Source: a virus (lineage: Duplodnaviria; Heunggongvirae; Uroviricota; Caudoviricetes). From it: 21,891 nucleotides of DNA. Every line of letters starts with the position of its first letter. Position 1 is the stretch's first letter. Below, in pieces: positions 1,774 to 21,891 of this stretch. The notes beneath the pieces were generated by a model. The model saw nothing but the letters and a program-made list of their open reading frames with translations, made no database searches and was not told the origin of the DNA. The stretch is taken from positions 1-21,891 of IMG/VR virus record IMGVR_UViG_2778261300_000004; one strand, given 5' to 3'. Made by a program: the position numbers and the translations under genes.

Positions 1774-2399
1774 GCCGCCAGCACCTTACTGGCAGTGACG
1801 TACCGCGTGCGCCGGTCGTCGATGCCATTCCTGCCACCATTGATAATCAAAGTTACACGTGCAATATCGCCGGGATACTTCATGCAGCCTTTGCTGGAGA
1901 AGAACCACGCCGCGCTACGAGCCGCGTATTCGTCTTGCGTCAACAGCTCAGGATTCTCCAGCAGGTCCACTTTCAGGCCGTTTCCGCAGTCACGATAGTT
2001 ATTCAAACCGGTAATCTGGATAAGTCCGCGCCCACGGTAATTCCAACCATCACCGGGAGCATTGTTCCCCATGCGTTTGCTATACACCAGATTTGCGATC
2101 GCGCGCTGTCGCTCAAGTGGCAATGGTGGTTCACCAGCACGGCGTCCCAATGCATTAGCCTGCCCTTGGGTGAGACGCCCAGCACGAACGAAGTTGGCCA
2201 GCCCGGTAACGCTGTAGTTGAAATTCTCCTGCAACCGGGTGAAGCCTCCAGACTCATGCCCGACCATAGCAATAAACATTGCCTGATCTTCGGGGTTGCT
2301 GATACCAAACTCTTTCATCGCAGAAGTTATATGCAAGAACCAGCGTGCGGCCAGCGCCTCGCTGATACCAGCAGCTCGCTGGAATTGTTTAATCTCCAT
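1770..2399 (-). CDS. Endolysin, GH19 (chitinase-like) lysozyme type
   Basis: Starts at internal ATG 2399 ([21 protein letters not shown]...) with GAGG upstream; family assignment from recalled GH19 endolysin features; the track ORF extends upstream only through alternative frames. Confidence 0.7.
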
Positions 2400-2695
2400 G
2401 TTTAGACCTCGATATTTTGAAAATCTGAACAACGTTACCGCGTGTTTTAATAACCGCAGCAAGCATAACAGCGTTGATAATGACCTCAGGTAAATCCACA
2501 GCCATTGGCGTGCATAACCAGATTGCATAGACGACACGAACAGGAATACTGGCCGCAGCAACAATAAGGAAATAAGCAAGCCCCCCCCCATCTTCGGTGT
2601 TGAGAGCCATTACGCCGGAATGTGACAACGCGAATTGCTATTCCCGAACAAATAATCGCATTGGCAATAAGCAAAAAAAGCTCATGAGTTACCAT
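2389..2695 (-). CDS. Holin-like small membrane gene split into two overlapping frames at a G9 tract (frameshifted or slippage-dependent)
   Basis: ORF A (ATG 2695, GGGGAG RBS, one TM) and ORF B (ends 2389, two hydrophobic segments) overlap by 125 nt in frames differing by 1; removing one G at 2581-2589 fuses them into a ~104-aa, 3-TM protein ending 10 nt into the endolysin start. Confidence 0.4.
2581..2589. repeat. Homopolymer tract C9 on + (G9 on the coding minus strand)
   Basis: Read directly; the only long G/C homopolymer in the window, at the junction of the two holin-like frames. Confidence 0.9.
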
Positions 2696-4382: not shown

Positions 4383-4453
4383 TTTAAATATTTATATTTA
4401 AATTATCACACATAAATAAATATAACAATAGTGCCAATCACATCAGTTATTGA

Positions 4454-6925
4454 TTAAACCACACTTAACCAACTTGAACCATTCGCAACAACTGGGCCAA
4501 CTCCACCAGCAAGACTGGTATTTGTGTTGTAACAGTGACTCCCCCTAACCGCAGTTGCGTTACTAACATCCGCAAAAATACCAAACCCTTTAATCGCCCA
4601 CGTGACCCCTGAAACCGGTGTAGATGGTATAGCTGAGTTTCCATACTGCATATGCCCACTTATATTTACAGAGCCAGTTGTTGTGGTGAAAACTTCACCC
4701 GTTTTACTTGATACGACATTACCGCCGCAAATAACAGAATAGCCACTAACCAGACTTGTTAATTTGTCTGGCCTGTTGAAAAATCCACCGATAAACTCAA
4801 ACGAGGGAGTGGTATTGTCGTAGTTAACACCAGTACTTATAAAGCTATAACCATTAGATTGGGTTAATTTGTCGAAGATAACTTTCTCTACTTTACCACT
4901 AGACTTTCTGATCACCGCCTGCCCGGAAACCAAATCAATATTCCCCGAAACAATAACGGTGTTTATCTGCCCACGGGTGATACGAACTCCGGCTGCGTCC
5001 GACACACTGGTAGCAAGTAAGGTTTTATCGAAATTAACATTAAGATTGTCTATGCGACTATTGTCGGCACCAGCACCATCACCCCCTACCTCCAGAAAAT
5101 ATGCGACATCACGAGGGCACCGACATTCCAGATTGTAGACACGAACTGCTGATGAGCCAGCCGTCCCAGTGGTTACCGACACTACAGGCACAACTGCTGC
5201 CGAGTAGTTAGCCGAGATAACGCCGATTACAGCGTTATCGACGGTAACAGTACCAGTCCCTACTGTTTTAAATTCAATGGTTCTGTAGCCAGCGCCAGCA
5301 ATTCCACCGACATTGTCGATATTCAGTGTTTTCACGTTGGTTTGTGACAGATTTGGTCCATCTGTCCACACCCTGATTACACTATGCTGGTAGCTACCAT
5401 AAACACCATCTATGCTCAGGTGGCGAACAGGTGTTGTGCTGTTTCCTGCAACCTTTACTGCACATAAAGAATTAATGCCATAAATGCCCTTAACGTCGAT
5501 GTGATTAAACGTTCCGCGCAACCCTAAATCGTAAGCAAGGTAATCCCCTCCGGTCATTGCAAACATGTCATCGCCAGTCGTACCGTACAGATCCCTTACG
5601 TAGGCATAATCAATAGGTGGCTGTAGATGAAGTCCATCAGAGTTGTTATTAAAACGAAGCCCTTGAGCATCAAGATATTGAACGTTGGCTACAAGGTAAG
5701 AATATTTTCTTGCACCTTTAATTTCCAGTCCACCACCTAATTTAACCCGCACTGCTGATGCAATGCAGATGCAATGCATTTCCATCCCATTCGAGGTGCC
5801 TCCCGTAGAATAGTTGTAGTCAACGGTCCCACCTCCCCATATCCCAATATAATCTGAGCGGTTACCAAGATCGGATGTGTTAGAAGCAAAACCTCCCGAG
5901 ACTGTCCTGTTTGACAGAACATATTCCCATTTCTCACTTACAAATACCGGCCTCAGATTGCCAGACGCGCCTGAAACCGTAACGCCGGATTTAATTTCGA
6001 TGTCGGTGTTATTAGGGACTATGATTGGCCCATTGACAAAAATAGTACCCTGATCTGCAAACACAATTCTCGTAATCGTGGACTTACCAGACAGATCGTT
6101 CAGCATGTTCTGCAAATTTGTAGAGTTAACGGTGGCACTATTTGTTGGTAAGACACCATAATCACTTACATAATAAATCCTATCTAATTTGTCTTTTACT
6201 GTCTGTAAAATCGCAAATGGTCCCTTATTTTTATATCCTGTTATTTTTGCACCATTGTTTGCTAACTCAATTAGAACATCTGAAGCCGAGCCTGATTCTG
6301 GCAAAACGGCAATTGGTCTCCCTACATCATTAAAAGCAAGAATTTTATTCGCTCTCTCTTCATTTGATGGTATCTGATCAACATAACTTTCAGGAACTCT
6401 TAGCGTCCTTTTGAAAAGGTTGTCGACATAATAGGCGACACTGTCAACATAATTTTTTGTTGCCGCATCCTGTGGATCTCGTGGGTCTCTAAGATTACGG
6501 ATATAGTTGTTTAGCGCGTCGTACCAGTTCGCGATGCTTGATGGCTTACGCAGCGCAAGGCTAAACAAACTGCGAACCTGCTGAATCAACATCGTTAGCT
6601 TATCAAACGCATCCTCATGCACCTCAGCAAAAAACTTACCCTGATTGCGCAGATCAGTTTCCTGTGTAACCGGTAGCTCTCGTGATATAGAAATCCGATA
6701 ACCGTTAGCCAACGCCTTCGACAGAATTACATTACCGCCGTTGTACCCTCCCGCACCAGTGACTGCGTAATCAGTATCAAGAGCCAGCACAGCGATATTT
6801 TCATCAAGGTCAACCACCTGTACTACCAGATCAGATTCCTGGAAAATCCTAAAGGTATAAGGGAATGAAGTCGTAACACCGTTACCTGTGTATTCGTTGT
6901 GGTCAACTTCTGTTGATACCGTCAT
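4454..6925 (-). CDS. Tailspike / receptor-binding protein, likely beta-helix glycanase
   Basis: ATG 6925 with GGAG RBS (track start is an upstream TTG); N-terminal ~150 aa (MTVSTEVDHNEYTGNGVTTSFPYTF...QETDLRNQGKFFAEVHEDAFDKL) matches the conserved tail fibre/tailspike N-domain as recalled; G/S/T/N/V-rich remainder. Confidence 0.7.
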   Translation of the reverse strand: MTVSTEVDHNEYTGNGVTTSFPYTFRIFQESDLVVQVVDLDENIAVLALDTDYAVTGAGGYNGGNVILSKALANGYRISISRELPVTQETDLRNQGKFFAEVHEDAFDKLTMLIQQVRSLFSLALRKPSSIANWYDALNNYIRNLRDPRDPQDAATKNYVDSVAYYVDNLFKRTLRVPESYVDQIPSNEERANKILAFNDVGRPIAVLPESGSASDVLIELANNGAKITGYKNKGPFAILQTVKDKLDRIYYVSDYGVLPTNSATVNSTNLQNMLNDLSGKSTITRIVFADQGTIFVNGPIIVPNNTDIEIKSGVTVSGASGNLRPVFVSEKWEYVLSNRTVSGGFASNTSDLGNRSDYIGIWGGGTVDYNYSTGGTSNGMEMHCICIASAVRVKLGGGLEIKGARKYSYLVANVQYLDAQGLRFNNNSDGLHLQPPIDYAYVRDLYGTTGDDMFAMTGGDYLAYDLGLRGTFNHIDVKGIYGINSLCAVKVAGNSTTPVRHLSIDGVYGSYQHSVIRVWTDGPNLSQTNVKTLNIDNVGGIAGAGYRTIEFKTVGTGTVTVDNAVIGVISANYSAAVVPVVSVTTGTAGSSAVRVYNLECRCPRDVAYFLEVGGDGAGADNSRIDNLNVNFDKTLLATSVSDAAGVRITRGQINTVIVSGNIDLVSGQAVIRKSSGKVEKVIFDKLTQSNGYSFISTGVNYDNTTPSFEFIGGFFNRPDKLTSLVSGYSVICGGNVVSSKTGEVFTTTTGSVNISGHMQYGNSAIPSTPVSGVTWAIKGFGIFADVSNATAVRGSHCYNTNTSLAGGVGPVVANGSSWLSVV

Positions 6926-7028
6926 GTTCAATCTCCGGATAGTCGCAGCACCCGTTGCGCCGCATACCCGGTTATTTTATTACCTTAAAAACCACATATG
7001 GATAGATAACCCATAAATACGAACAGAT

Positions 7029-7045
7029 ATCACCTTTCAGGTGAT
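7029..7045. promoter_or_regulatory. 17-bp inverted repeat A-TCACC-N5-GGTGA-T, a variant of the operator-like motif
   Basis: atcacctttcaggtgat in the divergent tailspike / SOS-gene intergenic region; same architecture as the TTACC-N5-GGTAA sites. Confidence 0.35.
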
Positions 7046-7081
7046 TTGCAAAACGTGCTGGATAGCAAATAAATTATTTGA

Positions 7082-7101
7082 TACTGTATATTCATACAGT
7101 T
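7082..7101. promoter_or_regulatory. LexA (SOS) box
   Basis: TACTGTATATTCATACAGTT matches the CTGT-N8-ACAG consensus with both arms intact (about 17/20 to TACTGTATATATATACAGTA); 20 bp upstream of ATG 7121. Confidence 0.65.
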
Positions 7102-7120
7102 ATTGCATGGAGAAGATAAG

Positions 7121-7378
7121 ATGCAGCAGTATCACTATCCACTGGAAAACGGATTTACCGAAAAGATTCACACGCCGGGAGGCGTCAGATCACTGGTGGA
7201 GGGATCGCACTTGATGAAATTACTCCGGGATCTCGATAAAGATGGATTTAATGTCGATGGTCCACTTGCCGAACTGACTGCACTGATTAACTACGTCACC
7301 AGCTCACAGATGTCTATGCAGGATCTGCAAACACATCTCGACTATTGTGCCGAACAATTACGAAAACAAACCCGGTAA
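7121..7378 (+). CDS. Small SOS-regulated protein of unknown function (candidate antirepressor or SOS-induced accessory factor)
   Basis: ATG 7121 with GGAGAAG RBS (track start is an upstream TTG at 7103); 85 aa, acidic and soluble; LexA box at its promoter; a hairpin follows. Confidence 0.5.
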   Translation: MQQYHYPLENGFTEKIHTPGGVRSLVEGSHLMKLLRDLDKDGFNVDGPLAELTALINYVTSSQMSMQDLQTHLDYCAEQLRKQTR

Positions 7379-7385
7379 ATTTAAA

Positions 7386-7401
7386 GGCCGCAAGAGCGGC
7401 C
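7386..7401. terminator. Hairpin between convergent genes (terminator-like)
   Basis: ggccgc / aaga / gcggcc; T-rich tract on the minus strand side, weaker on +. Confidence 0.4.
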
Positions 7402-7402
7402 T

Positions 7403-7414
7403 GTGACATGTCAC
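7403..7414. repeat. 12-bp perfect palindrome GTGACATGTCAC, copy 1 of 2
   Basis: Read directly; an identical copy lies at 13756-13767. Confidence 0.8.
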
Positions 7415-7421
7415 GCTCACG

Positions 7422-7562
7422 TTATGACAAGCCTATGTACCCTGCTACACCAGATAATATCAAAACAACTGCAACAGCAAATTCGCCATCGTGAATGATA
7501 CATTTACGGTTCATAACGCCAAGTGCAACAAGCGCAAACACAACAAGAATAAAAGCAATCAT
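7422..7562 (-). CDS. 46-aa hydrophobic membrane peptide (below the ORF-track cutoff)
   Basis: ATG 7562 with AGGATGAG RBS 10 nt after the 750-aa gene stop; MIAFILVVFALVALGVMNRKCIIHDGEFAVAVVLILSGVAGYIGLS gives two hydrophobic segments; stop at 7422-7424. Confidence 0.4.
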   Translation of the reverse strand: MIAFILVVFALVALGVMNRKCIIHDGEFAVAVVLILSGVAGYIGLS

Positions 7563-7571
7563 TTCTCATCC

Positions 7572-9824
7572 TTATTGCGGAGTGACATCCTGTGGTCGCC
7601 ACCAGTATGTCTGGTTAAACTCTTTCTTCGAACGTTGCTCCATTTTACGCAAATAACCTGGTGAAAAATACTCCTGCATCTGGTTAAAGATCATGTGATC
7701 GAGAGCCGCCTTTAAGTACCAGAGATTCGCACCTGGCATCAGACCTTTCCCCAGCTTAACCAGATCACCACCAGTCTGCTCATTCTTCCCTTCCACAGCA
7801 TTTAACGGTATGCCCTGAGCAATCTTCACTACGTCATCAACCAGACCAGCTACCGGGCCAAGCATCGACGCCAGCGCGCCGCTTCCGTACCTGGTGTGAT
7901 CTGACAATAAAAAGTCACCGTAAAGGCCAAGACCACCACCTTTCAGTAGAGCACCAAGCCAGAATTTTGCGGCATCTTCTCCTGTCATCTCTCGAGGATT
8001 ACGACCAGACGCAAGGTCGTTAAGTTGCTGCGACAAAGCGCCAAGAATGGTCGTACTGGCAATAAACGTCGCAATATATGCCGCACGCCCACCAGCAGAC
8101 GGCATACCCATAGCGCGTGACCAGTGACGCATAACCACCGAGATAGGGAACGATTTAAACAGGAAAACACTTCTCGTTAATTCACCTTTCCATGTTCCAC
8201 GCTGAATACCAGAACCGGTTATCAGTTGCTCACGTGCTCCCGGTGTAATAACAGCCATATCAACTTCTTCAGTTACGGCACCGAGCAGTTTACGCATTGC
8301 CTCAAATTTCACGCGTTCAGGCTCACCAAGATGTTTAACTGCTGAATCAGGGATACGCATAATGCTTTCCGGTGTCAGCATCGTATTATTGCCGTTCCCC
8401 CAGTCCTCCTGTTGCGCCAGACTCCATACGCTCCAGTCTGTGTCAGTAATCCCTTTGCTTTTCAGGATACGATAATCAGAATCATCGAGGCTATGAAGGT
8501 CTGGTGTCCGTGACACTACTTCTCCCAGGCTTCCCATCATGGTTACGCCATAGGCGCGCTTGTGCGCATCTGACCATGCTGTAAGCCCACTGGCACGCAT
8601 TACCGCCGTTGCAGCCCAACGAGACACAGACGGCCCCATATTATCCATCGCCCAGCGGTTAACGCTGCCAAGTAGAGATTCCATCGCCAGACCAGCGCGG
8701 CGCGCCCGCGCAAGCTCAGTACGGTTCGTTGGGTCCATAGCTTCAAGCTGGTTGCGGAATAACTGGTTCATTGGAAGGTTGGTCACCTTCGCAGACAGAT
8801 ACATGGTTCCAAGATCAGAGAACGATGACAGCAACGCGGATCCGAGTCTGCTGGCAACCAGCCAGTTGCGGATATTGTCAGACCATCGCGCGATGTGCGG
8901 ATTCGCTACAGGCTGTGTCTTTCCGGAAATAAAGTTGTACAGATTCTCTGTGTTGTTCGCCAGCCGCTCGACTTTACCGGTTTTACTCGGGTTAGCTGTT
9001 GCCGTTTCTGCCTTAACCTGATCAAGAAGGGAGCGGAAAACATGATCGGGGTTTGGACCATATGTTTCCACCAGAGCAATATCTTTACTGATACCTTCCA
9101 GGTGACCGACCATGATTTCCCATAGAGAGCGATCGCCATAAAGTTGTTGATATTGGAGATAGGAATCTGCATCTTTGAAATGTATCTGTCGTGATGCATT
9201 ACCACGGTTAGCACGTGCGCCGGAAATTCGCATTCCGGTATCAGTAAGCTTATTCAGCCCACCAGTAGCGATCGTGTTATAAGCCTCTCCAAGAAATGCA
9301 GACAACTCGGCATCGTTCATCAGTTGTCCATCGGCTCGGGTATAATATTTGCGATCCAGCTTACCTATAACATCGCTAACCCACTTATCCTTTGATACCG
9401 CCCCAACCTTTTCCATAGAATGATGTTGAGGGATCCCCCAGTTTTCGAGATAGCCAATGTCCCCACCAGCATCATTAAACCGGCGGCGCAGCAGCTCTGT
9501 AACTTCTCTCCACGCCTTAGCACCTTTTCTTGCTTTAGCATTGCCAGTATTTTGCCCCCGCATTTCATATACCAGGTCACGTACGCCCGCTTCATCTTCA
9601 AACAGACCAAAAAAGCGAGGATCAACTGCTTCGAATGCCTCCTGCAATTGACTCAATGCATAATCACGGGTGGCTTTTGTTCTGGATTCAACAGAGAGGA
9701 AATTAGATTTACCGTCTGCATTAAAAGCTATAGTACGGTTAAGAGCGCCAAGTTTCCCATCAGCCCCTTGATAGCTATTGATAAATTTATCCAATCTCTG
9801 ACGCGCGGCTATAGTGAGAGCCAC
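7572..9824 (-). CDS. Large virion protein, probably a DNA-ejection/injection (internal) protein of a podovirus-like particle
   Basis: 750 aa, GTG start; soluble N-terminal part and a C-terminal region with hydrophobic and Gly-rich segments; sits upstream of the tailspike where P22-like phages carry ejection proteins. Not portal-like by eye. Assignment is positional. Confidence 0.4.
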   Translation of the reverse strand: MALTIAARQRLDKFINSYQGADGKLGALNRTIAFNADGKSNFLSVESRTKATRDYALSQLQEAFEAVDPRFFGLFEDEAGVRDLVYEMRGQNTGNAKARKGAKAWREVTELLRRRFNDAGGDIGYLENWGIPQHHSMEKVGAVSKDKWVSDVIGKLDRKYYTRADGQLMNDAELSAFLGEAYNTIATGGLNKLTDTGMRISGARANRGNASRQIHFKDADSYLQYQQLYGDRSLWEIMVGHLEGISKDIALVETYGPNPDHVFRSLLDQVKAETATANPSKTGKVERLANNTENLYNFISGKTQPVANPHIARWSDNIRNWLVASRLGSALLSSFSDLGTMYLSAKVTNLPMNQLFRNQLEAMDPTNRTELARARRAGLAMESLLGSVNRWAMDNMGPSVSRWAATAVMRASGLTAWSDAHKRAYGVTMMGSLGEVVSRTPDLHSLDDSDYRILKSKGITDTDWSVWSLAQQEDWGNGNNTMLTPESIMRIPDSAVKHLGEPERVKFEAMRKLLGAVTEEVDMAVITPGAREQLITGSGIQRGTWKGELTRSVFLFKSFPISVVMRHWSRAMGMPSAGGRAAYIATFIASTTILGALSQQLNDLASGRNPREMTGEDAAKFWLGALLKGGGLGLYGDFLLSDHTRYGSGALASMLGPVAGLVDDVVKIAQGIPLNAVEGKNEQTGGDLVKLGKGLMPGANLWYLKAALDHMIFNQMQEYFSPGYLRKMEQRSKKEFNQTYWWRPQDVTPQ

Positions 9825-9835
9825 ACGACGTTTCT

Positions 9836-10090
9836 TTAATGCCGCTTCACCATGTCAGAAAACTCAAGGCGGAGATCAGCATCTTTAGGCATCGGAATAC
9901 CTTTCGCGTCATCAGTACCTTTACGAGCCGCCGCGCCAGCAAGAATTGTCTGCGCAGCGGTTTCAGGAGACACGGAAACATCCGGATTAAACCAGTTTTT
10001 TTCTGCCAAAATACCACCTGGCTTATCCATCAGTATCCCGGCAACGGCAGCAGATGGAGCGTTGGCACTGATCTGCTGTAGTGCTGACAT
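9836..10090 (-). CDS. Short ORF, probably the C-terminal remnant of a truncated upstream virion gene
   Basis: 84 aa from ATG 10090; stop 12 nt before the 750-aa gene start; nothing phage-structural lies upstream of it, only the tRNA island. Confidence 0.3.
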   Translation of the reverse strand: MSALQQISANAPSAAVAGILMDKPGGILAEKNWFNPDVSVSPETAAQTILAGAAARKGTDDAKGIPMPKDADLRLEFSDMVKRH

Positions 10091-10343
10091 ATACACCTGC
10101 CCACCACCAGTGCTCTGCCTGATGGTAGCGGTCTGGATACGTTTAAGGGGCACCCTCCCTTGCTCGGGCAAACGAACCAGGTAGCCGGAATGTGCAAGTC
10201 GAGCGGTTTTATTCCGCGCACGGGGATTCACCATCCCGGCGATTCGGTGTGACACCTCGGAAGAGACGAGGGTGCAACGATGAGAGCATTTATGGAGCCG
10301 CGACAAAGTGTGGTGCCTTAACAGGCTAAGTGCTCTCAGCGTT

Positions 10344-10420
10344 GTGGCATTAGCTCAGTTGGACAGAGCAACCGCCTTCTAAGCGGTTGGTCGCAGGTTC
10401 GAATCCTGCATGCCACGCCA
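10344..10420 (+). tRNA. tRNA-Arg, anticodon UCU (reads AGA/AGG)
   Basis: Cloverleaf folded by hand: 7-bp acceptor stem GTGGCAT/ATGCCAC, D-arm GCTC..GAGC, anticodon stem ACCGC/GCGGT with loop CTTCTAA, T-arm GCAGG TTCGAAT CCTGC, discriminator G and encoded CCA. Confidence 0.9.
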
Positions 10421-10463
10421 GAATCACGCCTAAGGACCGTGATGCCAGAAGTTCCAGGTGCTT

Positions 10464-10506
10464 GGCGGTGATGGTTTCCCTTGAAGGACTACCACCGCCC
10501 TTTTTA
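10464..10506 (+). terminator. Hairpin plus T-run after the tRNA (terminator-like)
   Basis: ggcggtg ... caccgcc arms followed by CTTTTTACA. Confidence 0.35.
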
Positions 10507-10583
10507 CAGCAGGACGCCATTGCGATGACTTCATGCTGTAAACCCGTACAGCCACGGAAGGCATAACTCATTGCTTCCAGTTC

Positions 10584-10608
10584 GCCCACTTCAGTGGGCT
10601 TTTTTTTC
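10584..10608 (+). terminator. Rho-independent terminator
   Basis: gcccac / ttca / gtgggc followed by T8. Confidence 0.7.
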
Positions 10609-10620
10609 TAGTGACTACTG

Positions 10621-10637
10621 ATTACCTTATGGGTAAT
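10621..10637. promoter_or_regulatory. Operator-like inverted repeat A-TTACC-N5-GGTAA-T in the promoter region of the AT-rich gene
   Basis: attaccttatgggtaat, perfect arms; overlaps a candidate -10 TAATAT (10634-10639) about 30 bp upstream of ATG 10669. Confidence 0.5.
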
Positions 10638-10668
10638 ATGCTGCAAACAAATAACACAAGGCCGTGAC

Positions 10669-11487
10669 ATGCTTGACTTCATCCGTGACATTTACTCCTC
10701 TTTCCGCCAAGCATCTCTTGAGCGGGTGAAAAGCCCGTTCCTTGGGGCATTTGTTTTTTCCTGGCTTTGCTTTAATTGGCAGATGTTAGCAATTCTATTT
10801 TTTAGTTCTAAGGATATTGAAAAGCGCCTTGCTATTATTAATGGCTCTTTCGGCATCGTCAGCTTTTTAATTGCGCCAATATGCACTACAGCATTGATAG
10901 TTATCCTTTTACCGCAAATTAATAAATTAATTACAATAATACAAGATAAACCTAACTCAGACACAATTGAAATGAGCCTTGCATCTAAAATAAAGATCGC
11001 CGAACTGCAGCAACTATTAGCAGAAAATGAAGCAAGAAAGAAACTTGCTGATAAAAAAGAAGAACGCTTCATTGAAGAGAATATTATTTCAATAAAAAAA
11101 GACCATGAAAAAGCAATAGATAACCTTAAAGACAAAGAAAGTAAAATCTCAAATCTCACGGACACAATAACTGAACTTCAGAGCAAACTGGTTAAAGCTG
11201 AGGCCACTCTCAAAGTTGAACAGGAGTCAAGATCCCAAGTGCAGAATGAATTGATTATTGAAAAAGAGAACAAGCGGAAATTAGAAGACAACATTCTGCA
11301 CCTTAATTTAAGTTTAAAAAAAAACCAATCAGAATTGGCCATTGCAAAAGAAGCCTATGATAATACCTTGATGGCTTATAATGAACTTAACACAACATTA
11401 AAAAAAGCAGAAAGCTCAATAATAAACTTCAACGCTAACTTTCCTTTTTTAACTGACATAAATAACAGCACCCCAAATACATACTAA
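10669..11487 (+). CDS. AT-rich moron: protein with two N-terminal TM helices and a long coiled coil (candidate exclusion, abortive-infection or host-takeover factor)
   Basis: 272 aa; two N-terminal hydrophobic segments then a K/E/L/N-rich heptad-like region; composition much more AT-rich than flanking phage genes; opposite strand to neighbours; own promoter-like and terminator-like signals. Confidence 0.55.
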   Translation: MLDFIRDIYSSFRQASLERVKSPFLGAFVFSWLCFNWQMLAILFFSSKDIEKRLAIINGSFGIVSFLIAPICTTALIVILLPQINKLITIIQDKPNSDTIEMSLASKIKIAELQQLLAENEARKKLADKKEERFIEENIISIKKDHEKAIDNLKDKESKISNLTDTITELQSKLVKAEATLKVEQESRSQVQNELIIEKENKRKLEDNILHLNLSLKKNQSELAIAKEAYDNTLMAYNELNTTLKKAESSIINFNANFPFLTDINNSTPNTY

Positions 11488-11582
11488 AAAAAAAATAAAA
11501 ATGCATGGGAGCATTTAGTTAGTTTAAATTTAAGTCTAAAGGAGAAAATACAAAAATAAATAACCAATCCACTATGGCATAT

Positions 11583-13052
11583 TTACTCATACGGGTCATA
11601 ATCTATTATAGCCTTACCCTGCTGCTGGCGCGGATCATTAAGTTTTTTTGTGACCGGAAAAGCAAACGTCAGCAGTAGCGCATCGCCTTTACCCGGCGAA
11701 CGCCCAAGCCGCTCCTTGATATCTTCCTTCGGTTCGATAACGATTTTACCGTCCACGCGAACTTTGTACTCTGCCGCCGACAGGTCGTCCGCTGTTTCCT
11801 GGTCATCCAGCATGCCGCCCAGCCTCAGCCATGTCTTGCATGAGTTGAACATCTCCCCACGCTTGTTAAGCATCTGCGGGTCAGTGGACGCACCGCCGAA
11901 CGGAACAAGTTGCCATGTACGTCCCCAGCCATCACCGATTGACTTCAGACCAGTTCCGTAACCGAAGTCGATGAACACTGCGTCAGCCTGGTACTGGTCT
12001 TCAAAGTCAGCGATATGCTTCGCCATAATCAGATCGTCAGTGGTCTTGTTGCCAGTCCACAGCACCTTACTGTGCAGCCCCTGCCGCAGGTATATCACAG
12101 CGTCATCAACGCCGGAGTATGCCGGGTCAACGCCGATTATCACCGGTGCATGTGCCACCTGCGCAGCAGTTACCACCCGTTTCATTGCCTCGTCAGTAAG
12201 ACCGGTAGGGATAAACTGCAATTCAGATGCATCAGGGAATATGCCGCGCACACGGATTTTAACGAAGTCGCTGTCTTCCCCGTAGTCATCAACCCATTTC
12301 TGCAATTGCTGCTTGTTAGTACCTTCCACCGTCCGGCTGTCAATCTGCGCAGTTTTCCAGCGGTGTTTATATTTGCGGAAACATTCACGGAAACGTCCGG
12401 TATTACGCGTCGGGTTTCCGAACGCCACCCAGATAATCTCAGTGTCTTCGTCCGTAAGCGCACCCTCAGCAACTTCCCACACCAGATCCGCAATGTTCGA
12501 CGCTTCATCGAATACCACGATGATGCGTTTGCGCTCGTTGTGTAGTCCGGCGAATGCCTCAGTGTTGTGCTCAGACCAGGGGATTGCGTCAGCTCGCCAC
12601 CGCTTGTCGTGCCCAGGATCATTGCTGTACATCGCAGTAGCGGTACAGGTAAACCAGTCTTTCGTGATAGCAAGGTTCGACCACTTGATAATTTCCGGCC
12701 AGGTCTTCGTTCGTAGCTGGTTGTCGGTGTTGGCGGTCACCACGACCTTACAATCCTCGCAAGTGGACATGCCCCAGTTGATCAGCATTGAGATGAGTGC
12801 TGATTTACCAATACCGTGACCCGAAGCACGTGCCAGCATAAGCGGCTGATAGCGCGTCTCGGGATTCTGCAGGTGATCACGTATCTCTCGGAACGCATCG
12901 GCCTGCCACTGACGTGGGCCGGAAGCATGTGCCAGTTCAGTCCCCTCTTCCCCCCACGGGAACGCATAGAGGGCATAGCCAAGCGGATCGTGAGTGAACC
13001 CTGCAATATCCTCGATCAACTGCTCTTCAGGAGATAACGCTGCATCTGTCAC
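11583..13052 (-). CDS. terL: Terminase large subunit
   Basis: 489 aa; Walker A-like SGHGIGKS; GTG start overlaps the terS stop (GTGA). Confidence 0.8.
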   Translation of the reverse strand: MTDAALSPEEQLIEDIAGFTHDPLGYALYAFPWGEEGTELAHASGPRQWQADAFREIRDHLQNPETRYQPLMLARASGHGIGKSALISMLINWGMSTCEDCKVVVTANTDNQLRTKTWPEIIKWSNLAITKDWFTCTATAMYSNDPGHDKRWRADAIPWSEHNTEAFAGLHNERKRIIVVFDEASNIADLVWEVAEGALTDEDTEIIWVAFGNPTRNTGRFRECFRKYKHRWKTAQIDSRTVEGTNKQQLQKWVDDYGEDSDFVKIRVRGIFPDASELQFIPTGLTDEAMKRVVTAAQVAHAPVIIGVDPAYSGVDDAVIYLRQGLHSKVLWTGNKTTDDLIMAKHIADFEDQYQADAVFIDFGYGTGLKSIGDGWGRTWQLVPFGGASTDPQMLNKRGEMFNSCKTWLRLGGMLDDQETADDLSAAEYKVRVDGKIVIEPKEDIKERLGRSPGKGDALLLTFAFPVTKKLNDPRQQQGKAIIDYDPYE

Positions 13053-13645
13053 TGATTGCCATCCTGACGTTCTTTCAGTCTCTTCCTGGCTGCTGCTATG
13101 CGATCAGCAATTGTCACATTCACATTAACATCCATGCGTTCTTTGAACGCGTTGACGTCGACGTGCTTACCAATCAGTTCGAGGTTCTTCACCTTGTCAG
13201 GCCATTTAATTTTTTTGAGGATTGTCTCTATCGAATCCTCGTTCATGTTCATGATGGTCGATGACAGATCAAAGCCGCTAAGCGTAGTGCGCCAGATTTT
13301 CGGCCACTCGCGGATTGGCTTAAGGCTCCCATCGTCGTTGAGGATATCAATCACGTCCATCTGGTCGATCTCCACCAGGCGCATGAGAACGTAATCGGCA
13401 CTGACGCGCATTCGTTTGTTGCGCTCCTCCATCAACTCGGCAATCCGTTTTTGAATGCGTTCATCGCGCATCATGACACTGGCTTTAACTGCCGCTGTAT
13501 TTGGGGAGAATCCTGCGTTAATCGCTGCCTGAGTCTGGTTTTCAGGCGTTTTGATGTATGACTGGCAATAAGCCTCCTGCATTGCTGTTAGTGGCTTAAA
13601 TTGCGTTGATTTGCGTTTATAGGTTTTAGGTTCAGCAGACATCAT
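13049..13645 (-). CDS. terS: Terminase small subunit
   Basis: Most likely start is the ATG-ATG at 13645 (MMSAEPKTYKRK...); the track ORF begins at an upstream TTG (13723); basic helical protein directly before and coupled to terL. Confidence 0.65.
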   Translation of the reverse strand: MMSAEPKTYKRKSTQFKPLTAMQEAYCQSYIKTPENQTQAAINAGFSPNTAAVKASVMMRDERIQKRIAELMEERNKRMRVSADYVLMRLVEIDQMDVIDILNDDGSLKPIREWPKIWRTTLSGFDLSSTIMNMNEDSIETILKKIKWPDKVKNLELIGKHVDVNAFKERMDVNVNVTIADRIAAARKRLKERQDGNQ

Positions 13646-13755
13646 AACCACCGTGGTAATAGTTACCGTTGTGGTAATAGTACCATGCAAAATAAAGCCG
13701 CCATAGTTGGCGGCAGTATTCAAAACCCGTCAAATTCATCATGCATAATCTACTC

Positions 13756-13767
13756 GTGACATGTCAC
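13756..13767. repeat. 12-bp perfect palindrome GTGACATGTCAC, copy 2 of 2
   Basis: Read directly; overlaps the stop codon of the 13764-14111 gene, just upstream of terS. Confidence 0.8.
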
Positions 13768-14111
13768 ACTATTAATTTCGTTTCATGCCAGCCTTTAGTC
13801 ACCCAGCATTGCGAGTCACCATTACACGGGCATGAATTAACTGGAACTCTCTCGCCGCACTTACCGCAACGTTTTCTGCTGATCGATTTTATACGCCCGC
13901 GCACACGTGCATCATCCTGGCGGATCAGCAGCGCGATGTACTCGGCCATTTCATAGGGATCGCGACCAGGGCGCCGGGCGGCGCAGTTCCGCGCTAGCAT
14001 TTCCTGCTCCTGCTTATCCAGCACCAGTTCAATTTTGCGCTCACCGGCGGCGGACTGCCGAGCGCGCTGCGCGGCTTTGCGTTCTGCGGGGGATTTAGCC
14101 ACGAATCGCAC
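13764..14111 (-). CDS. Small basic protein with Cys-rich C-terminus (possible zinc-binding regulator)
   Basis: Track ORF with GTG start; a second GTG with GGAG RBS three codons in; C-terminal CGKCG...CPCNGDSQC cysteine cluster. Confidence 0.4.
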   Translation of the reverse strand: MRFVAKSPAERKAAQRARQSAAGERKIELVLDKQEQEMLARNCAARRPGRDPYEMAEYIALLIRQDDARVRGRIKSISRKRCGKCGERVPVNSCPCNGDSQCWVTKGWHETKLIV

Positions 14112-14216
14112 TCCACGCCAGATTGATTAATGACTCCCAGGTAATATAAACCCGGATACCAGCAGCCAGGCCGAAACCAATCACCATGGCATAAAGCAGA
14201 GCGTTGCACTTGTTCA

Positions 14217-14762
14217 TCACTTCACCTCCTGCGGCGGCTCCGGTAGCGGCATCCAGTGTGACGGCTCACATACCCCCTCAACACCATTCATGTAAAAGAA
14301 TTGAAATAACCCTTTACCTTTGTGAAACCCTACCATCTGCTCTTTTGTGTCTGAGCAATAAACCAAAACATCTTCTTCGCTTGGCATTCGCTCACTACAG
14401 CTTATCCAACCATCCGGAGTTACCGGAGAGTTGCTATTTACATCGAAGTTTGGCTCTGCGTCCTGAACCAGGAGGATGTAACCATTCTTGGCTGTATCAA
14501 GTTCTAACGCCTCGGTGACGGTGCCGAAATAGCGATTACCTAAATCAGCATCACAAGTGCTTACATCAATGGAAACTTCCATGCCTTCGATTAATTCTGG
14601 CAAGTTGTAAGTTTGGTTTACAGGCTCTGCTTCCAGCGATGCCAGAGCAATTCGTGCCAGTTCTTCCGCTTCTTCTGCTGGCAGTACAACGTTGCTACCA
14701 GGTCCGTATGTTTCGCGCCACTGCTTGATTGTCAGCAGTCGCTCTTTGGTAATAGTGGTCAT
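14217..14762 (-). CDS. Phage accessory protein, DUF551-like C-terminus
   Basis: Start taken at ATG 14762 (MTTITKERLL...) with strong GGAG RBS; C-terminal ...CEPSHWMPLPEPP resembles the DUF551 family as recalled. Confidence 0.5.
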   Translation of the reverse strand: MTTITKERLLTIKQWRETYGPGSNVVLPAEEAEELARIALASLEAEPVNQTYNLPELIEGMEVSIDVSTCDADLGNRYFGTVTEALELDTAKNGYILLVQDAEPNFDVNSNSPVTPDGWISCSERMPSEEDVLVYCSDTKEQMVGFHKGKGLFQFFYMNGVEGVCEPSHWMPLPEPPQEVK

Positions 14763-14763
14763 A

Positions 14764-15276
14764 TCACTCTCCTTTGATGCGAATGCCAGTAGCGCGGATT
14801 GCATCGATGACTTCAGAAACTTTGTATGCCATTACCGTTTGGTAATCATCGTGAAAATCTGTTCGATGAAGCATGCTGCTACGTTCCGGGAGCAGTATTT
14901 CCCGCGCTTCCAGTTCTGCAATGCGCTTACCTCCATCCGCGATTACTCCATCGTAATACTCACGCTGCTCGTTGAGTTTTGATTTTGCTGCTTCAAGCTC
15001 AACACGCAGTTTCCCTACCGTTAGCGCAATTTCCTCGTTCTCCTGGTCGCGGCGTTTGATGTATTGCTGGTTTCTTTCCCGTTCATCCAGCAGCGCCAGC
15101 ACGGTTTCTGGTCCGGTCAGAAATTTGAAGGCGTTGAGCGCATCAATATCCACACCGTAATCTTTAAGTTCCTGTTCACTTAACAAATCATCATCAACTG
15201 GCAACATTAACAGGCGTTCCATTGCTGGAGTTGCACGTTCTGCCGCCTCACGCAGTACCTGATAGTCAATTGTCAT
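14764..15276 (-). CDS. Acidic coiled-coil protein (Ea22-like?)
   Basis: ATG 15276 with GGGTGG RBS; stop and next start nearly abut. Confidence 0.45.
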   Translation of the reverse strand: MTIDYQVLREAAERATPAMERLLMLPVDDDLLSEQELKDYGVDIDALNAFKFLTGPETVLALLDERERNQQYIKRRDQENEEIALTVGKLRVELEAAKSKLNEQREYYDGVIADGGKRIAELEAREILLPERSSMLHRTDFHDDYQTVMAYKVSEVIDAIRATGIRIKGE

Positions 15277-15917
15277 TCTCGCCACCCTTCACAGTTGTAA
15301 TCACTACAGCCTTCAAAATCATATGGGCTGTACTGCCAGGTTATTTTTCCGCAATGCGGACAATTCCAACGCACCTTCCCGCTTCGCGACTTCTTTCTTC
15401 TGTTCTGCTCTTTCAACCAGTCAGGCATGACCAAACCTGCGCCCTGAACCATTGTTCTGCGGTTAAATTTATTGATATTGAACGTCCGGCGCTTTGCTGA
15501 ATCAGCAATGGAAAATGGCAACCAAACTATTCCTGGTTCGTTTTTGTTGGCGACGCTAAAGATGGTCGCTTTACTGAAGTCATCTGTTGGCAATCCACCG
15601 TGTTGAAGCCAGTAAACATCGTTGCCGTTCCAGCTACCTTTTTTGTAGGCCACATACGCAGTGCAATCTGGCTCAATCAGGTTTTCTGTAGGGATGTACT
15701 GGCAATCAACGTGCCACACAGCCATTGCATCCACGCTATCAGCGCAAACAGGCTGATCGATATCTCGACCACAATTCCAGGCTTTTTGGGCTTCTTCCAG
15801 CGTGTAAACATGAGCGCGATCGATATTAGAACTGTAACCATTGCCGTTATGGCAATGGAATGAAGCGTTATTACCCACAGTTTCACGCAAGCACATCATG
15901 TAAAAGCGGTTATTCAC
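15273..15917 (-). CDS. Hypothetical phage protein with C-terminal Cys cluster
   Basis: GTG start overlapping the upstream stop (GTGA); C-terminal CPHCG...C...C motif. Confidence 0.45.
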   Translation of the reverse strand: MNNRFYMMCLRETVGNNASFHCHNGNGYSSNIDRAHVYTLEEAQKAWNCGRDIDQPVCADSVDAMAVWHVDCQYIPTENLIEPDCTAYVAYKKGSWNGNDVYWLQHGGLPTDDFSKATIFSVANKNEPGIVWLPFSIADSAKRRTFNINKFNRRTMVQGAGLVMPDWLKEQNRRKKSRSGKVRWNCPHCGKITWQYSPYDFEGCSDYNCEGWRE

Positions 15918-16477
15918 TGGATGACTCCTTTACGAAGCTGTTCAGCGATATCTTCGAGAACGCCATCAGAGAATGAGCGGTCAAAATCTCCTTCCGGCAC
16001 ATTAGCCATAAAATCAGTAGAGGTAAGAATCATCCGGGCAATATCCTCGGCGTTCTTCGCAGTATCATCAATAAAACCAGCTTTCCAGGCAGCCAACATT
16101 CTGTTCGCCACAAAGTAAGCCCCTTCCTTGCGTGCTTCAGTCTTCATTTCATCCAAGAAAGCATCGGTCGCAGGAGTGGTTTTTTGTGGTGATATGGCGA
16201 TACGAATTGTTTCAAGAGCTGGATCTGTTTCCACTGTTGGCACCTTGATAAAACCAAGCTGCACGCCATTCATAATGAACGTGCGGCGATCCTCACATAT
16301 CGCCTTCAGTCTCGCATTCTCCGCAGCCAGCACCGAAAACTTCTCGTGTGCCAACTTAACAGCCGCATCAGCCTGCTTAATTGACTCAATCGCTTTCTGC
16401 TGGTCTTCGGCCAGCGCATTAGCACGCTCCAGTTGCACTTCCAGTTGCGTTGCCAAATCGCTGATTCCATGGTGCAC
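15914..16477 (-). CDS. Hypothetical protein with N-terminal coiled coil; true start uncertain
   Basis: Track ORF from GTG 16477; N-terminal region overlaps a second frame that carries a small zinc-ribbon-like ORF. Confidence 0.4.
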   Translation of the reverse strand: MHHGISDLATQLEVQLERANALAEDQQKAIESIKQADAAVKLAHEKFSVLAAENARLKAICEDRRTFIMNGVQLGFIKVPTVETDPALETIRIAISPQKTTPATDAFLDEMKTEARKEGAYFVANRMLAAWKAGFIDDTAKNAEDIARMILTSTDFMANVPEGDFDRSFSDGVLEDIAEQLRKGVIQ

Positions 16478-16596
16478 TCAACACAGTGTCCGTTGTAAAC
16501 CCAGCGTTCACTGTCATGTCCGTGCTTACATGGTTTTCCGGTGTAGTAGCGTTTAAGTCCGCGCTTTGCGGCATCAATACGTGTAATGATTTCCAT
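16471..16596 (-). CDS. Small zinc-ribbon-like ORF; 3' end unresolved
   Basis: ATG 16596 (MEIITRIDAAKRGLKRYYTGKPCKHGHDSERWVYNGHCVEC); its frame has no stop until 16306 and becomes Arg/Trp-rich where it overlaps the coiled-coil frame. Confidence 0.25.
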
Positions 16597-16705
16597 GGTA
16601 AGTACTGTTATTAGTATTGGGATTACGGTTATTTTGTGCTGACACAAAAAAAAGATCAACCAGATTTGGTTTTTTATTACCTTTGAGGTGCGAATAGATA
16701 TGAAA

Positions 16706-16725
16706 AGACCGCCGGATGGCGGTCT
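16706..16725 (-). terminator. Hairpin terminator about 20 nt after the Cro-like gene
   Basis: agaccgcc / ggat / ggcggtct followed on the minus strand by TTTTCATATCT. Confidence 0.4.
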
Positions 16726-16746
16726 ACAGAGGGTTGTGGCTGGATA

Positions 16747-16977
16747 TCATGAGTAGAAGAAGTATGCCAGTTCTGCTTTTGAGCGCAGCCATTGTCTTGT
16801 TTTACAGGCTTTAAAAAGCCCATTCATCAATACCTTACCTGGCATTTTGCGCTTACCTGTTAAGTGAGTCTGGATATAGTGACTCGTCGTTCCGGCTTCC
16901 TGTGCGAAGGCTTCACGCTCATCCGGAGTAAGTGCAAGCCAGTGCTTTTTGAAATCGAAATGTCCGTTATCGCTCAT
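16747..16977 (-). CDS. Cro-like small HTH regulator (YdaS/Cro-type)
   Basis: 76 aa, ATG 16977; HTH-like segment TTSHYIQTHLTGKRKMP; divergent from the repressor gene across an operator-bearing intergenic region. Confidence 0.5.
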   Translation of the reverse strand: MSDNGHFDFKKHWLALTPDEREAFAQEAGTTSHYIQTHLTGKRKMPGKVLMNGLFKACKTRQWLRSKAELAYFFYS

Positions 16978-17012
16978 AGCTATTGCCTGATATTTATTTC
17001 AGATAATAAATA

Positions 17013-17077: not shown

Positions 17078-17131
17078 ATTGCTTTAAATTGAATCATCTA
17101 CTGATTCATATATGAGGCGATTTTCCAGAAA

Positions 17132-20946: not shown

Positions 20947-21891
20947 CTATGCAGATCCACCCTGGGTATTAGATAATGGCTTCCGGAAGTTGTAACGACC
21001 AGGAACCAGATATTCACTTCCACCAGCGCACATCTGCAACCCGACCAATATATCCTGTGCCTGTTTAGGCAGGTAAATAACGTGCGCCCGGCTTCCCTTC
21101 ATGCGGTCTGAAGGAATTGTCCATGTCCATTTTTTAAAATCTATTTCGTCCCACGTTGCATTGGTGAATTCGCCTTTACGAACCATAGTGATAAGCACCA
21201 GCTTTAAAGCCATTTTCATAGTGCCCATAGCACCAATGGCATCCAGCGTACGGAAGAACAGGCCAATTTCTTCTGGTGTCAGTGTTCGCTCTCGTGGTTT
21301 AAATATGGCGATAGACGAAGGTTTAATGTCAGCTGCAGGATTAAACAAACCATGACCACGGTCATTGGCGTGACGGTATACGCTGCTGATGATCTCCCTG
21401 GCCTGCACTGCTGTTGCCCGGCCACCGCGTTCGACAATCCGGTCACACAAATCACGAACCATCGATGTGGTAATTTCAACCATCATTTTGTTGCCAAGAA
21501 CCGGAAGTATGTCACGGTCGATCACCGCCTGCTTCATTGCGCGGGTACTTTCAGCCAGGATGACGTGTTTCATATAACTGTCGGTATGTACCGCAAACGT
21601 CTCGGCACCACGAATCTTTTTGATACCGTCACGTTTAGCCACAGCCGGCGACTGGCCTGCTTTAAGCAGCTTCTTTGCAGCAATCAGTTCTTCCCGCGCT
21701 TCTGCCAGGCTGATACCGTCACGCCCATACTGCCCGATTACCAGTGTTTCGCGGCGACCGTTGATACGGTAGTCATAGCGAAACGAGACCGTGCCTGACG
21801 TAAGCACAGCTACATACAGCCCGTCACGATCGGAGACCTTGTACAGTTTGTCCTGCGGCTTGAGGTTTTTTAATTTTGTATCGGTAAGCAC
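20947..21891 (-). CDS. int: Tyrosine integrase, P4-type; N-terminus runs off the window and the ORF ends before the catalytic C-terminal segment
   Basis: Arm-binding-like N-terminal region (LTDTKLKNLKPQDKLYKVSDRDGLY...) and core segment (LVLITMVRKGEF...HVIYLPKQAQDIL...SEYLVPGRY) present; ORF stops after ...FRKPLSNTQGGSA with no H-x-x-R / catalytic-Tyr region in any frame downstream. Confidence 0.7.
   Translation of the reverse strand: MLTDTKLKNLKPQDKLYKVSDRDGLYVAVLTSGTVSFRYDYRINGRRETLVIGQYGRDGISLAEAREELIAAKKLLKAGQSPAVAKRDGIKKIRGAETFAVHTDSYMKHVILAESTRAMKQAVIDRDILPVLGNKMMVEITTSMVRDLCDRIVERGGRATAVQAREIISSVYRHANDRGHGLFNPAADIKPSSIAIFKPRERTLTPEEIGLFFRTLDAIGAMGTMKMALKLVLITMVRKGEFTNATWDEIDFKKWTWTIPSDRMKGSRAHVIYLPKQAQDILVGLQMCAGGSEYLVPGRYNFRKPLSNTQGGSA

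What the first reader, a model, noticed from the sequence alone, without database searches (positions are those of the whole stretch)
9836..11582. Head-morphogenesis module is missing: terL is followed by a tRNA island and a truncated ejection-gene remnant
After terS-terL a tailed phage normally encodes portal, scaffold, coat and head-completion proteins. Here terL is followed instead by the oppositely oriented AT-rich gene, terminators and tRNA-Arg, then an 84-aa ORF that looks like the tail end of a virion gene, then the 750-aa ejection-like protein. Together with the truncated integrase and split holin this points to a defective prophage that has kept terminase, tailspike and lysis functions. 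The tRNA island marks the deletion or replacement junction.
Basis: inference. Interest (0 to 1): 0.55.

Follow-up and report, generated by a model that had tools for sequence, protein, structure and literature searches.

The report
Deletion-riddled phiV10-like defective prophage
This is an ordinary decaying phiV10-like prophage of E. coli: four clean deletions and a holin frameshift have removed its head, tail, replication and excision functions, and the tRNA gene and AT-rich gene after the terminase were in the phage before the deletions.

Summary
On the minus strand, terS-terL (13723-11583) is followed by an opposite-strand AT-rich gene, tRNA-Arg(TCT), an 84-aa ORF and a 750-aa ORF. No portal, protease or capsid gene exists anywhere in the window.

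Comparison with intact relatives (phiV10, TL-2011b, PAS61, an E. coli TUM10828 prophage) maps the cause to the base:
- An 11.2-kb deletion (junction 10126-10130) runs from 214 bp past the tRNA into the phiV10 p18 homologue.
- A 2.4-kb deletion (junction 9845-9848) removes the rest of p18, all of p19 and the first 66 codons of p20.

The 84-aa ORF is an internal p18 fragment (residues 617-698), not a gene's tail end. The 750-aa ORF is p20 residues 75-824.

Two further deletions truncate the integrase and remove the replication genes. The holin carries a 2-bp frameshift. All junctions show only 2-5 nt of microhomology.

The tRNA and AT-rich gene sit in the same place in intact prophages. They lie next to the junction but do not mark a replacement.

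Three independent read-run assemblies carry the same junctions, so this is not a misassembly. It is ordinary prophage decay and of low interest.

The parts
13049..13723 (-). terS, apparently intact (224 aa)
   Evidence: Pfam Terminase_2 E=2e-29. Collinear with phiV10 1-2111 at 96.9%. Same length as the TUM10828 gene.
11583..13052 (-). terL, apparently intact (489 aa)
   Evidence: phrog_2 terminase large subunit E=5e-52. Same length as the 'terminase' of the intact TUM10828 prophage.
10669..11487 (+). AT-rich accessory gene of unknown function, present before the deletions. In this window it is cut to 272 aa by TTA>TAA at 11486; it is 296 aa in sibling assemblies and in intact prophages.
   Evidence: phrog_13369 (unknown function) E=7e-132. 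Same slot in the intact prophage L007. No significant PADLOC, Pfam or NCBIfam family; only coiled-coil-type weak hits.
10584..10607 (+). Terminator-like hairpin plus T-run between the tRNA and the AT-rich gene
   Evidence: It lies inside the block that is 97% identical to phiV10 2666-3147.
10344..10420 (+). tRNA-Arg (anticodon TCT), a native gene of this phage genus
   Evidence: ARAGORN. Rfam tRNA 73.3 bits. The same tRNA sits at the same relative position in phiV10 (2853-2929) and TL-2011b (14420-14496) and in the TUM10828 prophage.
10126..10130 (.). Junction J1. An 11,208-bp deletion relative to the TUM10828 prophage (phiV10 3148-14350) removes p06, portal, p08, protease, major capsid protein, p11-p17 and the 5' 1,808 nt of p18.
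   Evidence: BLAST segment boundaries overlap by 5 nt. Junction alignment. Deletion size.
9845..10130 (-). 286-bp internal fragment of the p18 (epsilon15 gp15-like) gene, stranded between J1 and J2
   Evidence: 99% nt identity to phiV10 14351-14636. 94/94 aa identical to p18 residues 605-698. phrog_992 profile positions 536-621 of 764.
9836..10090 (-). 84-aa ORF: p18 residues 617-698 read from an internal Met, plus 2 out-of-frame residues (R, H) and a stop created by J2
   Evidence: Called as an 84-aa gene in the Logan assemblies.
9845..9848 (.). Junction J2 (GAAG microhomology). A 2,426-bp deletion (phiV10 14637-17058) removes the 3' end of p18, all of p19 and the first 198 nt of p20. The fusion is out of frame.
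7572..9848 (-). 5'-truncated p20 (epsilon15 gp17-like virion protein). Homology covers residues 67-824. The longest ORF (750 aa, GTG at 9824) corresponds to residues 75-824.
   Evidence: 741/750 aa identical to phiV10 p20. phrog_684 positions 76-831 of 840. tblastn.
16462..16465 (.). Junction J4 (outside the finding). A 2,311-bp deletion removes the DnaT-like and P-like replication genes, the DUF1064 gene and the start of the eae-like gene.
20965..20969 (.). Junction J3 (outside the finding). A 1,128-bp deletion removes the integrase 3' end, the DUF1382 gene and most of the methyltransferase gene.
   Evidence: The integrase matches PF00589 only to profile position 101 of 172, against 170 of 172 in phiV10.
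2389..2695 (-). Holin (PF05449) gene frameshifted by loss of 2 bp in a G-run
   Evidence: Alignment with TL-2011b gp51. The Pfam match stops at profile position 33 of 80, against 80 of 80 in TL-2011b.

Best explanation
The window holds a decayed prophage of the genus Uetakevirus (epsilon15/phiV10-like podoviruses). It lies next to genes resembling the host's yfgF-yfgI, at the locus where the intact TUM10828 relative sits beside guaA.

The ancestral late region ran terS, terL, [opposite-strand accessory gene + tRNA-Arg], p06, portal, protease, capsid, tail genes, p16, p17, p18, p19, p20, p21, tailspike. Two deletions in the finding region account for the present layout:
- An 11.2-kb deletion starts in the non-coding stretch 214 bp past the tRNA and ends inside p18.
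- A 2.4-kb deletion runs from inside p18 to codon 66 of p20.

A 286-bp island of p18 is left between them. It reads as the 84-aa ORF. The headless p20 reads as the 750-aa ORF.

The junctions carry only 2-5 nt of shared sequence and no inserted DNA. That is the signature of illegitimate (microhomology-mediated or slippage) deletion, not site-specific or homologous recombination. Two more such deletions (integrase 3' end, replication genes) and a holin frameshift make the element unable to excise, replicate, build particles or lyse normally.

Shown: the endpoints, the identity of the remnants, the ancestral status of the tRNA and AT-rich gene, and the same junctions in three independently assembled read runs.

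Inferred: the deletion mechanism, that the remnant ORFs have no function, and that losing lethal functions while keeping the repressor and the O-antigen acyltransferase reflects ordinary prophage decay or domestication.
For: - Segment-by-segment collinearity with phiV10, TL-2011b, PAS61 and the TUM10828 prophage, with 4-5 nt overlaps at every breakpoint.
- The 84-aa ORF region is 100% identical over 94 aa to p18 residues 605-698. The 750-aa ORF is 99% identical to p20 residues 75-824.
- tblastn finds no other phiV10 structural protein anywhere in the window. PHROG and Pfam scans of the main ORFs find no head gene.
- The tRNA-Arg sits at the same position in phiV10 and TL-2011b.
- The full terL / AT-rich gene / tRNA block matches 30 complete E. 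coli genomes over its full length. In the one inspected it is followed by an intact head module.
- Identical junctions occur at 99.98-100% identity in Logan assemblies of three different SRA runs; five contigs carry the exact 750-aa product.
- The integrase catalytic domain and the holin are both truncated.
Against: - Nothing contradicts the deletion model.
- The order of the events cannot be resolved. No intermediate carrying only J1 or only J2 was found in 5,426 complete E. coli genomes, and exact-junction scans of GTDB representatives, IMG/VR (both junctions) and JGI metagenomes (J1 only) found nothing.
- Whether J1 and J2 arose in one complex event is also open.
- The remnants show no further degradation: p20 has no stops or frameshifts. 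The deletions are therefore recent, or less likely the remnant is maintained.
- Non-function of the remnant ORFs is inferred, not tested.
Confidence: 0.93

Rival explanations
1. Assembly artefact: the head module exists in the real genome but was collapsed or skipped by the assembler.
For: No complete E. coli genome, GTDB representative, IMG/VR contig or JGI metagenome contig shares the junctions tested. Short-read contigs of two sibling assemblies break near the tRNA and inside the AT-rich gene.
Against: Three independently assembled SRA runs contain J1 and J2 inside their contigs at 99.98-100% identity to the window. The junctions share only 2-5 nt, far too little to cause a repeat-mediated collapse. 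Four separate junctions plus a frameshift form a coherent picture of decay.
Confidence: 0.02
2. Helper-dependent element. The reduced prophage is functional and keeps its own terminase, tailspike and lysis genes. It is packaged into capsids supplied by a co-resident or superinfecting Uetakevirus, or it launches in-situ headful packaging of the neighbouring chromosome, as in lateral transduction.
For: terS and terL are full length and match intact relatives. The tailspike, endolysin and spanin ORFs are open. The retained genes show no further decay.
Against: The integrase lacks the C-terminal part of its catalytic domain. The replication genes are deleted. The holin is frameshifted. The gene remnants are out of frame and lack their own start signals. 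The breakpoints cut through genes rather than falling at module boundaries, which is the opposite of the tidy architecture of evolved satellites. Only a handful of near-identical copies exist, so this is not a spreading element.
Confidence: 0.04
3. Natural mosaic variant: a different, viable genome organisation in which the tRNA island replaced the head genes by modular exchange, with head genes of another type elsewhere in the same phage.
For: The slot after terL is variable. phiV10, TL-2011b and PAS61 each carry a different opposite-strand gene there.
Against: No head-type gene of any family occurs in the window. The window spans the element from the yfg-like host genes to the integrase start codon. 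The island is present together with the full head module in an intact prophage. The flanking ORFs are demonstrable gene fragments.
Confidence: 0.01

Closest known systems
Escherichia phage phiV10 (NC_007804, genus Uetakevirus) and Salmonella phage epsilon15
   Same: Same gene order and 97-99% nucleotide identity over terS/terL, the tRNA-Arg block, the p18 fragment, p20 and p21, the early left operon and the integrase 5' part. The tRNA-Arg(TCT) sits at the same position.
   Different: Lacks phiV10 3148-14350, 14637-17058, 27854-28976 and 33342-35657. A different gene occupies the slot after terL (272/296-aa AT-rich gene instead of p03). The tailspike receptor-binding part and the acyltransferase differ. 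There is no Bro-N antirepressor region; the viable phage PAS61 also lacks it.
Intact prophage of E. coli TUM10828 (NZ_CP134389, 1485475-1520033) beside guaA
   Same: Closest intact relative for the finding region. It is collinear from the tRNA through the AT-rich 296-aa gene, terL and terS (window 10126-14101), at 99.5% over 10300-11700. The window's yfg-like flanking genes fit the same chromosomal locus.
   Different: It has the complete p06-to-p20 structural module, the replication genes and a full integrase. Its tailspike and acyltransferase cassette differs.
Cryptic or defective prophages of E. coli (established knowledge, e.g. the K-12 remnants DLP12, Rac, Qin, e14)
   Same: A prophage locked in place by deletions that remove excision, replication, morphogenesis and lysis functions, while the repressor and accessory (lysogenic-conversion) genes persist.
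   Different: Much younger. The surviving genes are 97-100% identical to those of viable phages, and every breakpoint can still be read to the base.
Phage satellites (PICI, cf-PICI, P4-like)
   Same: Small size (about 21 kb) and no capsid genes of its own, yet with packaging genes.
   Different: No working integrase, no replication module, gene fragments at the breakpoints, and no satellite hallmark genes. It is not a member of this group.

Membership tests
Uetakevirus (epsilon15/phiV10-like) prophage | High nucleotide identity and synteny with type genomes across several modules | tested here: met
   83-99% identity in collinear blocks with phiV10, most blocks at 88-99%. The best whole-genome phage hits are all phiV10-like.
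Uetakevirus (epsilon15/phiV10-like) prophage | Complete virion module (portal, protease, major capsid protein, tail, p16-p20 internal or hub proteins) | tested here: not met
   Only p18 residues 605-698, p20 residues 67-824 and p21 are detectable. It is therefore a remnant of the genus, not a functional member.
Defective (cryptic) prophage | Loss of genes essential for particle formation | tested here: met
   The 11.2-kb and 2.4-kb deletions are mapped to the base.
Defective (cryptic) prophage | Loss of excision and replication capacity | tested here: met
   The integrase catalytic domain is cut at PF00589 profile position 101 of 172. The DnaT-like and P-like replication genes are deleted. This is sequence-level evidence only.
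Defective (cryptic) prophage | No infectious particles on induction | not testable with these tools
   Needs an induction experiment.
Phage satellite (PICI / cf-PICI / P4-like) | Own functional integrase and replication initiator or primase | tested here: not met
   Integrase truncated. Replication module deleted. No primase or rep-type family among the ORFs scanned.
Phage satellite (PICI / cf-PICI / P4-like) | Recurrent, conserved reduced architecture in many unrelated hosts | tested here: not met
   The junctions are absent from 5,426 complete E. coli genomes. Exact-junction scans of GTDB representatives, IMG/VR (both junctions) and JGI metagenomes (J1 only) also found nothing. Only five near-identical Logan contigs carry them.

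The most novel reading that the evidence does not exclude
The locked-in remnant still has an intact terS/terL and presumably its pac site. When a related Uetakevirus superinfects or is induced in the same cell, packaging could start in situ at this pac site. It would then run unidirectionally through the tailspike and lysis genes into the adjacent yfg-like host genes and fill helper capsids with host DNA. This would be a lateral-transduction platform created by prophage decay. Alternatively, the truncated p20 or the p18 fragment could be made and poison assembly of incoming relatives.
Probability: 0.05. Interest if true: 0.4.

Novelty: new member of a known kind. Interest (0 to 1): 0.1.

Why it matters
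The value is mainly for correct annotation.
- The 84-aa and 750-aa ORFs should be marked as pseudogene fragments of the p18 and p20 homologues.
- The tRNA-Arg and the AT-rich gene should be recognised as native cargo of the phage, not as a scar.
- The element should be scored as a non-inducible remnant.

It is also a very clean, young example of prophage inactivation. Four microhomology deletions and one frameshift hit morphogenesis, replication, excision and lysis, while the repressor, the O-antigen acyltransferase, the tailspike and the terminase survive. It raises no new biological question.

Tried and rejected
- Pfam, NCBIfam and PADLOC scans of the 84/156-aa, 750-aa and AT-rich proteins gave nothing significant. 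Only PHROGs and direct comparison with phiV10 were informative.
- An Rfam scan of the whole window found only the tRNA.
- Searches for the same junctions elsewhere all found nothing. These were a BLAST search of 5,426 complete E. coli genomes and exact-pattern scans of GTDB species representatives (two scans), IMG/VR (two scans) and JGI metagenomes. The order of the deletions could therefore not be reconstructed from intermediates.
- A search for the source serotype via the tailspike and acyltransferase cassette found only two partial matches in complete E. coli genomes.
- The primary paper on the genetics of epsilon15 gp15/16/17 (Guichard et al. 2013) is not in the searchable library. The roles of these proteins are taken second-hand from PMC12391199 and PMC8954989, which disagree between tail hub or tube and T7-like ejection proteins.
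- Rejected readings: misassembly, modular replacement and satellite (see the rival explanations).

Full report
**What is in the window**

The window is almost entirely a prophage whose late genes lie on the minus strand. Its parts, from low to high coordinates:
- 1-1071: two ORFs that correspond to the DUF5384 and Gly-zipper genes called in a sibling contig. That contig continues with a DUF2633 gene and a MASE1-EAL gene, a set resembling E. coli yfgI, yfgH, yfgG and yfgF.
- About 1200-3100: the lysis genes.
- 3246-4382: an AT-rich acyltransferase gene.
- 4454-6931: an 825-aa tailspike.
- 7572-9824: the 750-aa ORF.
- 9836-10090: the 84-aa ORF.
- 10344-10420 (+): tRNA-Arg(TCT).
- 10669-11487 (+): an AT-rich ORF.
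- 11583-13052: terL, followed by terS at 13049-13723.
- Beyond that: early genes, the repressor, the RecET-like genes, and an integrase ORF whose start codon is the last base of the window.

**Checking the observation**

The central claim, that no head-morphogenesis genes follow terL, holds for the whole window. A tblastn of all sixteen phiV10 structural proteins (p06 to p21) finds only p18 residues 605-698, p20 residues 67-824 and p21. PHROG and Pfam scans of the main ORFs show regulators, recombination proteins, terminase, tailspike, acyltransferase, holin and integrase, and nothing head-like.

**Identity of the phage**

The best phage matches are phiV10, O157 typing phages 9 and 10, PAS61, TL-2011b and ZX5. 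All are epsilon15-like podoviruses of about 39-45 kb, and phiV10 and PAS61 are classified in the genus Uetakevirus. Among complete E. coli genomes, the related prophages span about 38-44 kb where this window spans 21.9 kb.

**Mapping the finding region**

Collinear BLAST blocks against phiV10:

| Window | phiV10 | Identity | Content |
|---|---|---|---|
| 13763-11653 | 1-2111 | 96.9% | terS, terL |
| 10607-10126 | 2666-3147 | 97.3% | tRNA block |
| 10130-9845 | 14351-14636 | 99.0% | inside p18 |
| 9848-7384 | 17059-19523 | 98.2% | p20 from nt 199, p21, terminator |

Adjacent blocks overlap by 5 and 4 nt. Base-level alignments show clean joins with no inserted DNA. The shared sequence is 2-5 nt at J1 and GAAG at J2.

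The closest intact relative for this region is the E. coli TUM10828 prophage. Against it the two deletions measure 11,208 bp and 2,426 bp.
- The first removes p06, portal, p08, protease, major capsid protein, p11-p17 and the first 1,808 nt of p18.
- The second removes the end of p18, all of p19 and the first 198 nt of p20.

**The two ORFs**

The ORF 9836-10306 is 94/94 identical to phiV10 p18 residues 605-698. The 84-aa ORF within it starts at an internal methionine (p18 residue 617) and ends two codons after J2, because the join is out of frame. It is therefore an internal fragment, not a gene's tail end.

The 750-aa ORF is 741/750 identical to p20 residues 75-824. Its GTG 'start' is simply the first possible start codon after the frame opens, and its native start and upstream signals are gone.

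phiV10 p18, p19 and p20 correspond to epsilon15 gp15, gp16 and gp17 (record notes; p20 by position). The literature assigns these either to the tail hub or tube (Guichard et al. 2013, as cited in PMC12391199) or, for gp14-gp16, to T7-like ejection proteins (PMC8954989).

**The tRNA island**

- ARAGORN finds the same tRNA-Arg(TCT), in the same orientation and position relative to terL, in phiV10 and TL-2011b.
- The whole stretch 10300-11700 (tRNA, terminator, AT-rich gene, terL end) matches 30 complete E. coli genomes over its full length, at 98.1-99.5% identity in the 15 listed.
- In the one I inspected (TUM10828, beside guaA), the island is followed by p06, portal, Bbp19-like protein, peptidase, major capsid protein and the rest of the structural module, up to the 837-, 600- and 824-aa proteins.
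- The window is collinear with that prophage from 10126 to 14101 without a break.

The island is therefore native cargo in a variable slot. phiV10, TL-2011b and PAS61 each carry a different opposite-strand gene there. The deletion begins 214 bp beyond the tRNA, in the non-coding stretch upstream of p06. The island is adjacent to the junction but does not mark a replacement.

**The rest of the element**

- A third deletion (J3, 20965-20969; 1,128 bp) removes the 3' part of the integrase. It leaves 309 native residues, and the Pfam catalytic-domain match ends at profile position 101 of 172, against 170 of 172 in phiV10.
- A fourth deletion (J4, 16462-16465, ATCA microhomology; 2,311 bp) removes the DnaT-like and P-like replication genes.
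- The PF05449 holin has lost 2 bp in a G-run and matches the profile only to position 33 of 80.
- terS, terL, the tailspike, the endolysin and the spanin genes are open.

**Is it real?**

The exact 750-aa product is encoded on five contigs of the Logan collection. Loci from three different SRA runs match the window at 99.98-100% identity with no gaps, and J1 and J2 lie inside their contigs. Microhomology of 2-5 nt cannot cause an assembly collapse. Misassembly is effectively excluded.

No complete E. coli genome covers more than the 286-bp p18 fragment of a junction-spanning query. Exact-pattern scans of GTDB species representatives, IMG/VR (both junctions) and JGI metagenomes (J1 only) also found nothing. 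The deletion derivative is therefore confined to a narrow lineage.

**Mechanism and interpretation**

Shown:
- the four breakpoints and what was lost at each;
- that the remnants are otherwise undamaged, which implies recent events.

Inferred:
- illegitimate, microhomology-mediated deletion, possibly replication slippage, as the mechanism;
- that the pattern reflects ordinary prophage decay or domestication, in which excision, replication, particle formation and lysis are lost while the repressor and the O-antigen acyltransferase are kept.

The satellite or helper-dependent reading is unattractive. The breakpoints cut through genes, the integrase and replication functions are gone, and the architecture does not recur. 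A residual possibility is in-situ packaging from the intact terminase and pac site when a related helper is present. It cannot be excluded by sequence alone, and I rate it at about 5%.

**Verdict**

The defective-prophage reading is right. The role given to the tRNA, the nature of the 84-aa ORF and the assumed integrity of the 750-aa ORF are wrong in detail. This is a new instance of a well-known phenomenon and of low interest.

Noticed in passing
window 11486 and 11492 (AT-rich gene 10669-11487): The window differs from the sibling assembly L003 by T>A at both positions, inside an A-rich run; the intact TUM10828 prophage encodes the same longer protein as L003. The first change turns Leu273 (TTA) into a stop, so the protein is 272 aa here and 296 aa elsewhere. 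It could be a real nonsense mutation or a homopolymer sequencing error.
   Followed up: partly
window 10669-11487 (+): The AT-rich accessory gene is mostly coiled coil after its N-terminal third. It matches phrog_13369 (unknown function) and has distant homologues (24-31% identity) in E. coli, Klebsiella and Vibrio phages. It has no PADLOC, Pfam or NCBIfam family. The slot after terL holds a different opposite-strand gene in each related phage, so it is a candidate lysogen-expressed accessory or defence gene.
   Followed up: partly
window 16462-16465: A fourth microhomology deletion (2.3 kb, ATCA) removes the DnaT-like and P-like replication genes and DUF1064. It fuses the p42 homologue's 5' part to an eae-like gene (187-aa ORF 15914-16477).
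   Followed up: yes
window 2389-2695 (-): The holin (PF05449) has lost 2 bp in a run now read as G9. The same sequence occurs in the sibling assemblies. The upstream Phage_holin_8-type membrane protein (2682-3095) is intact.
   Followed up: yes
window 3246-6440: The tailspike C-terminal part matches only 2 of 5,426 complete E. coli genomes (94-96%). The AT-rich Acyl_transf_3 gene (GC about 0.31-0.37) matches none. This suggests a rare O-antigen specificity and modification cassette.
   Followed up: partly
window 10350-10589 (-) and L001 (phiV10) 2672-2923: The phiV10 CDS p04 (and TL-2011b gp24) corresponds to the window's 79-aa ORF, which overlaps the tRNA-Arg gene on the opposite strand. It is probably an annotation artefact in the reference records rather than a gene.
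   Followed up: no
window 7379-7383: Compared with phiV10 and TL-2011b, the Bro-N antirepressor region between p21 and the p24 homologue is absent. The viable phage PAS61 is collinear with the window here (6444-9848), so this is natural variation, not a fifth deletion.
   Followed up: yes
L004 start (window 10315) and L005 ends (window 4405, 11132): Short-read contigs of two sibling samples break just before the tRNA and inside the AT-rich gene. This may mean that this block is repeated elsewhere in those genomes, for example in a second related prophage that could act as a helper.
   Followed up: no
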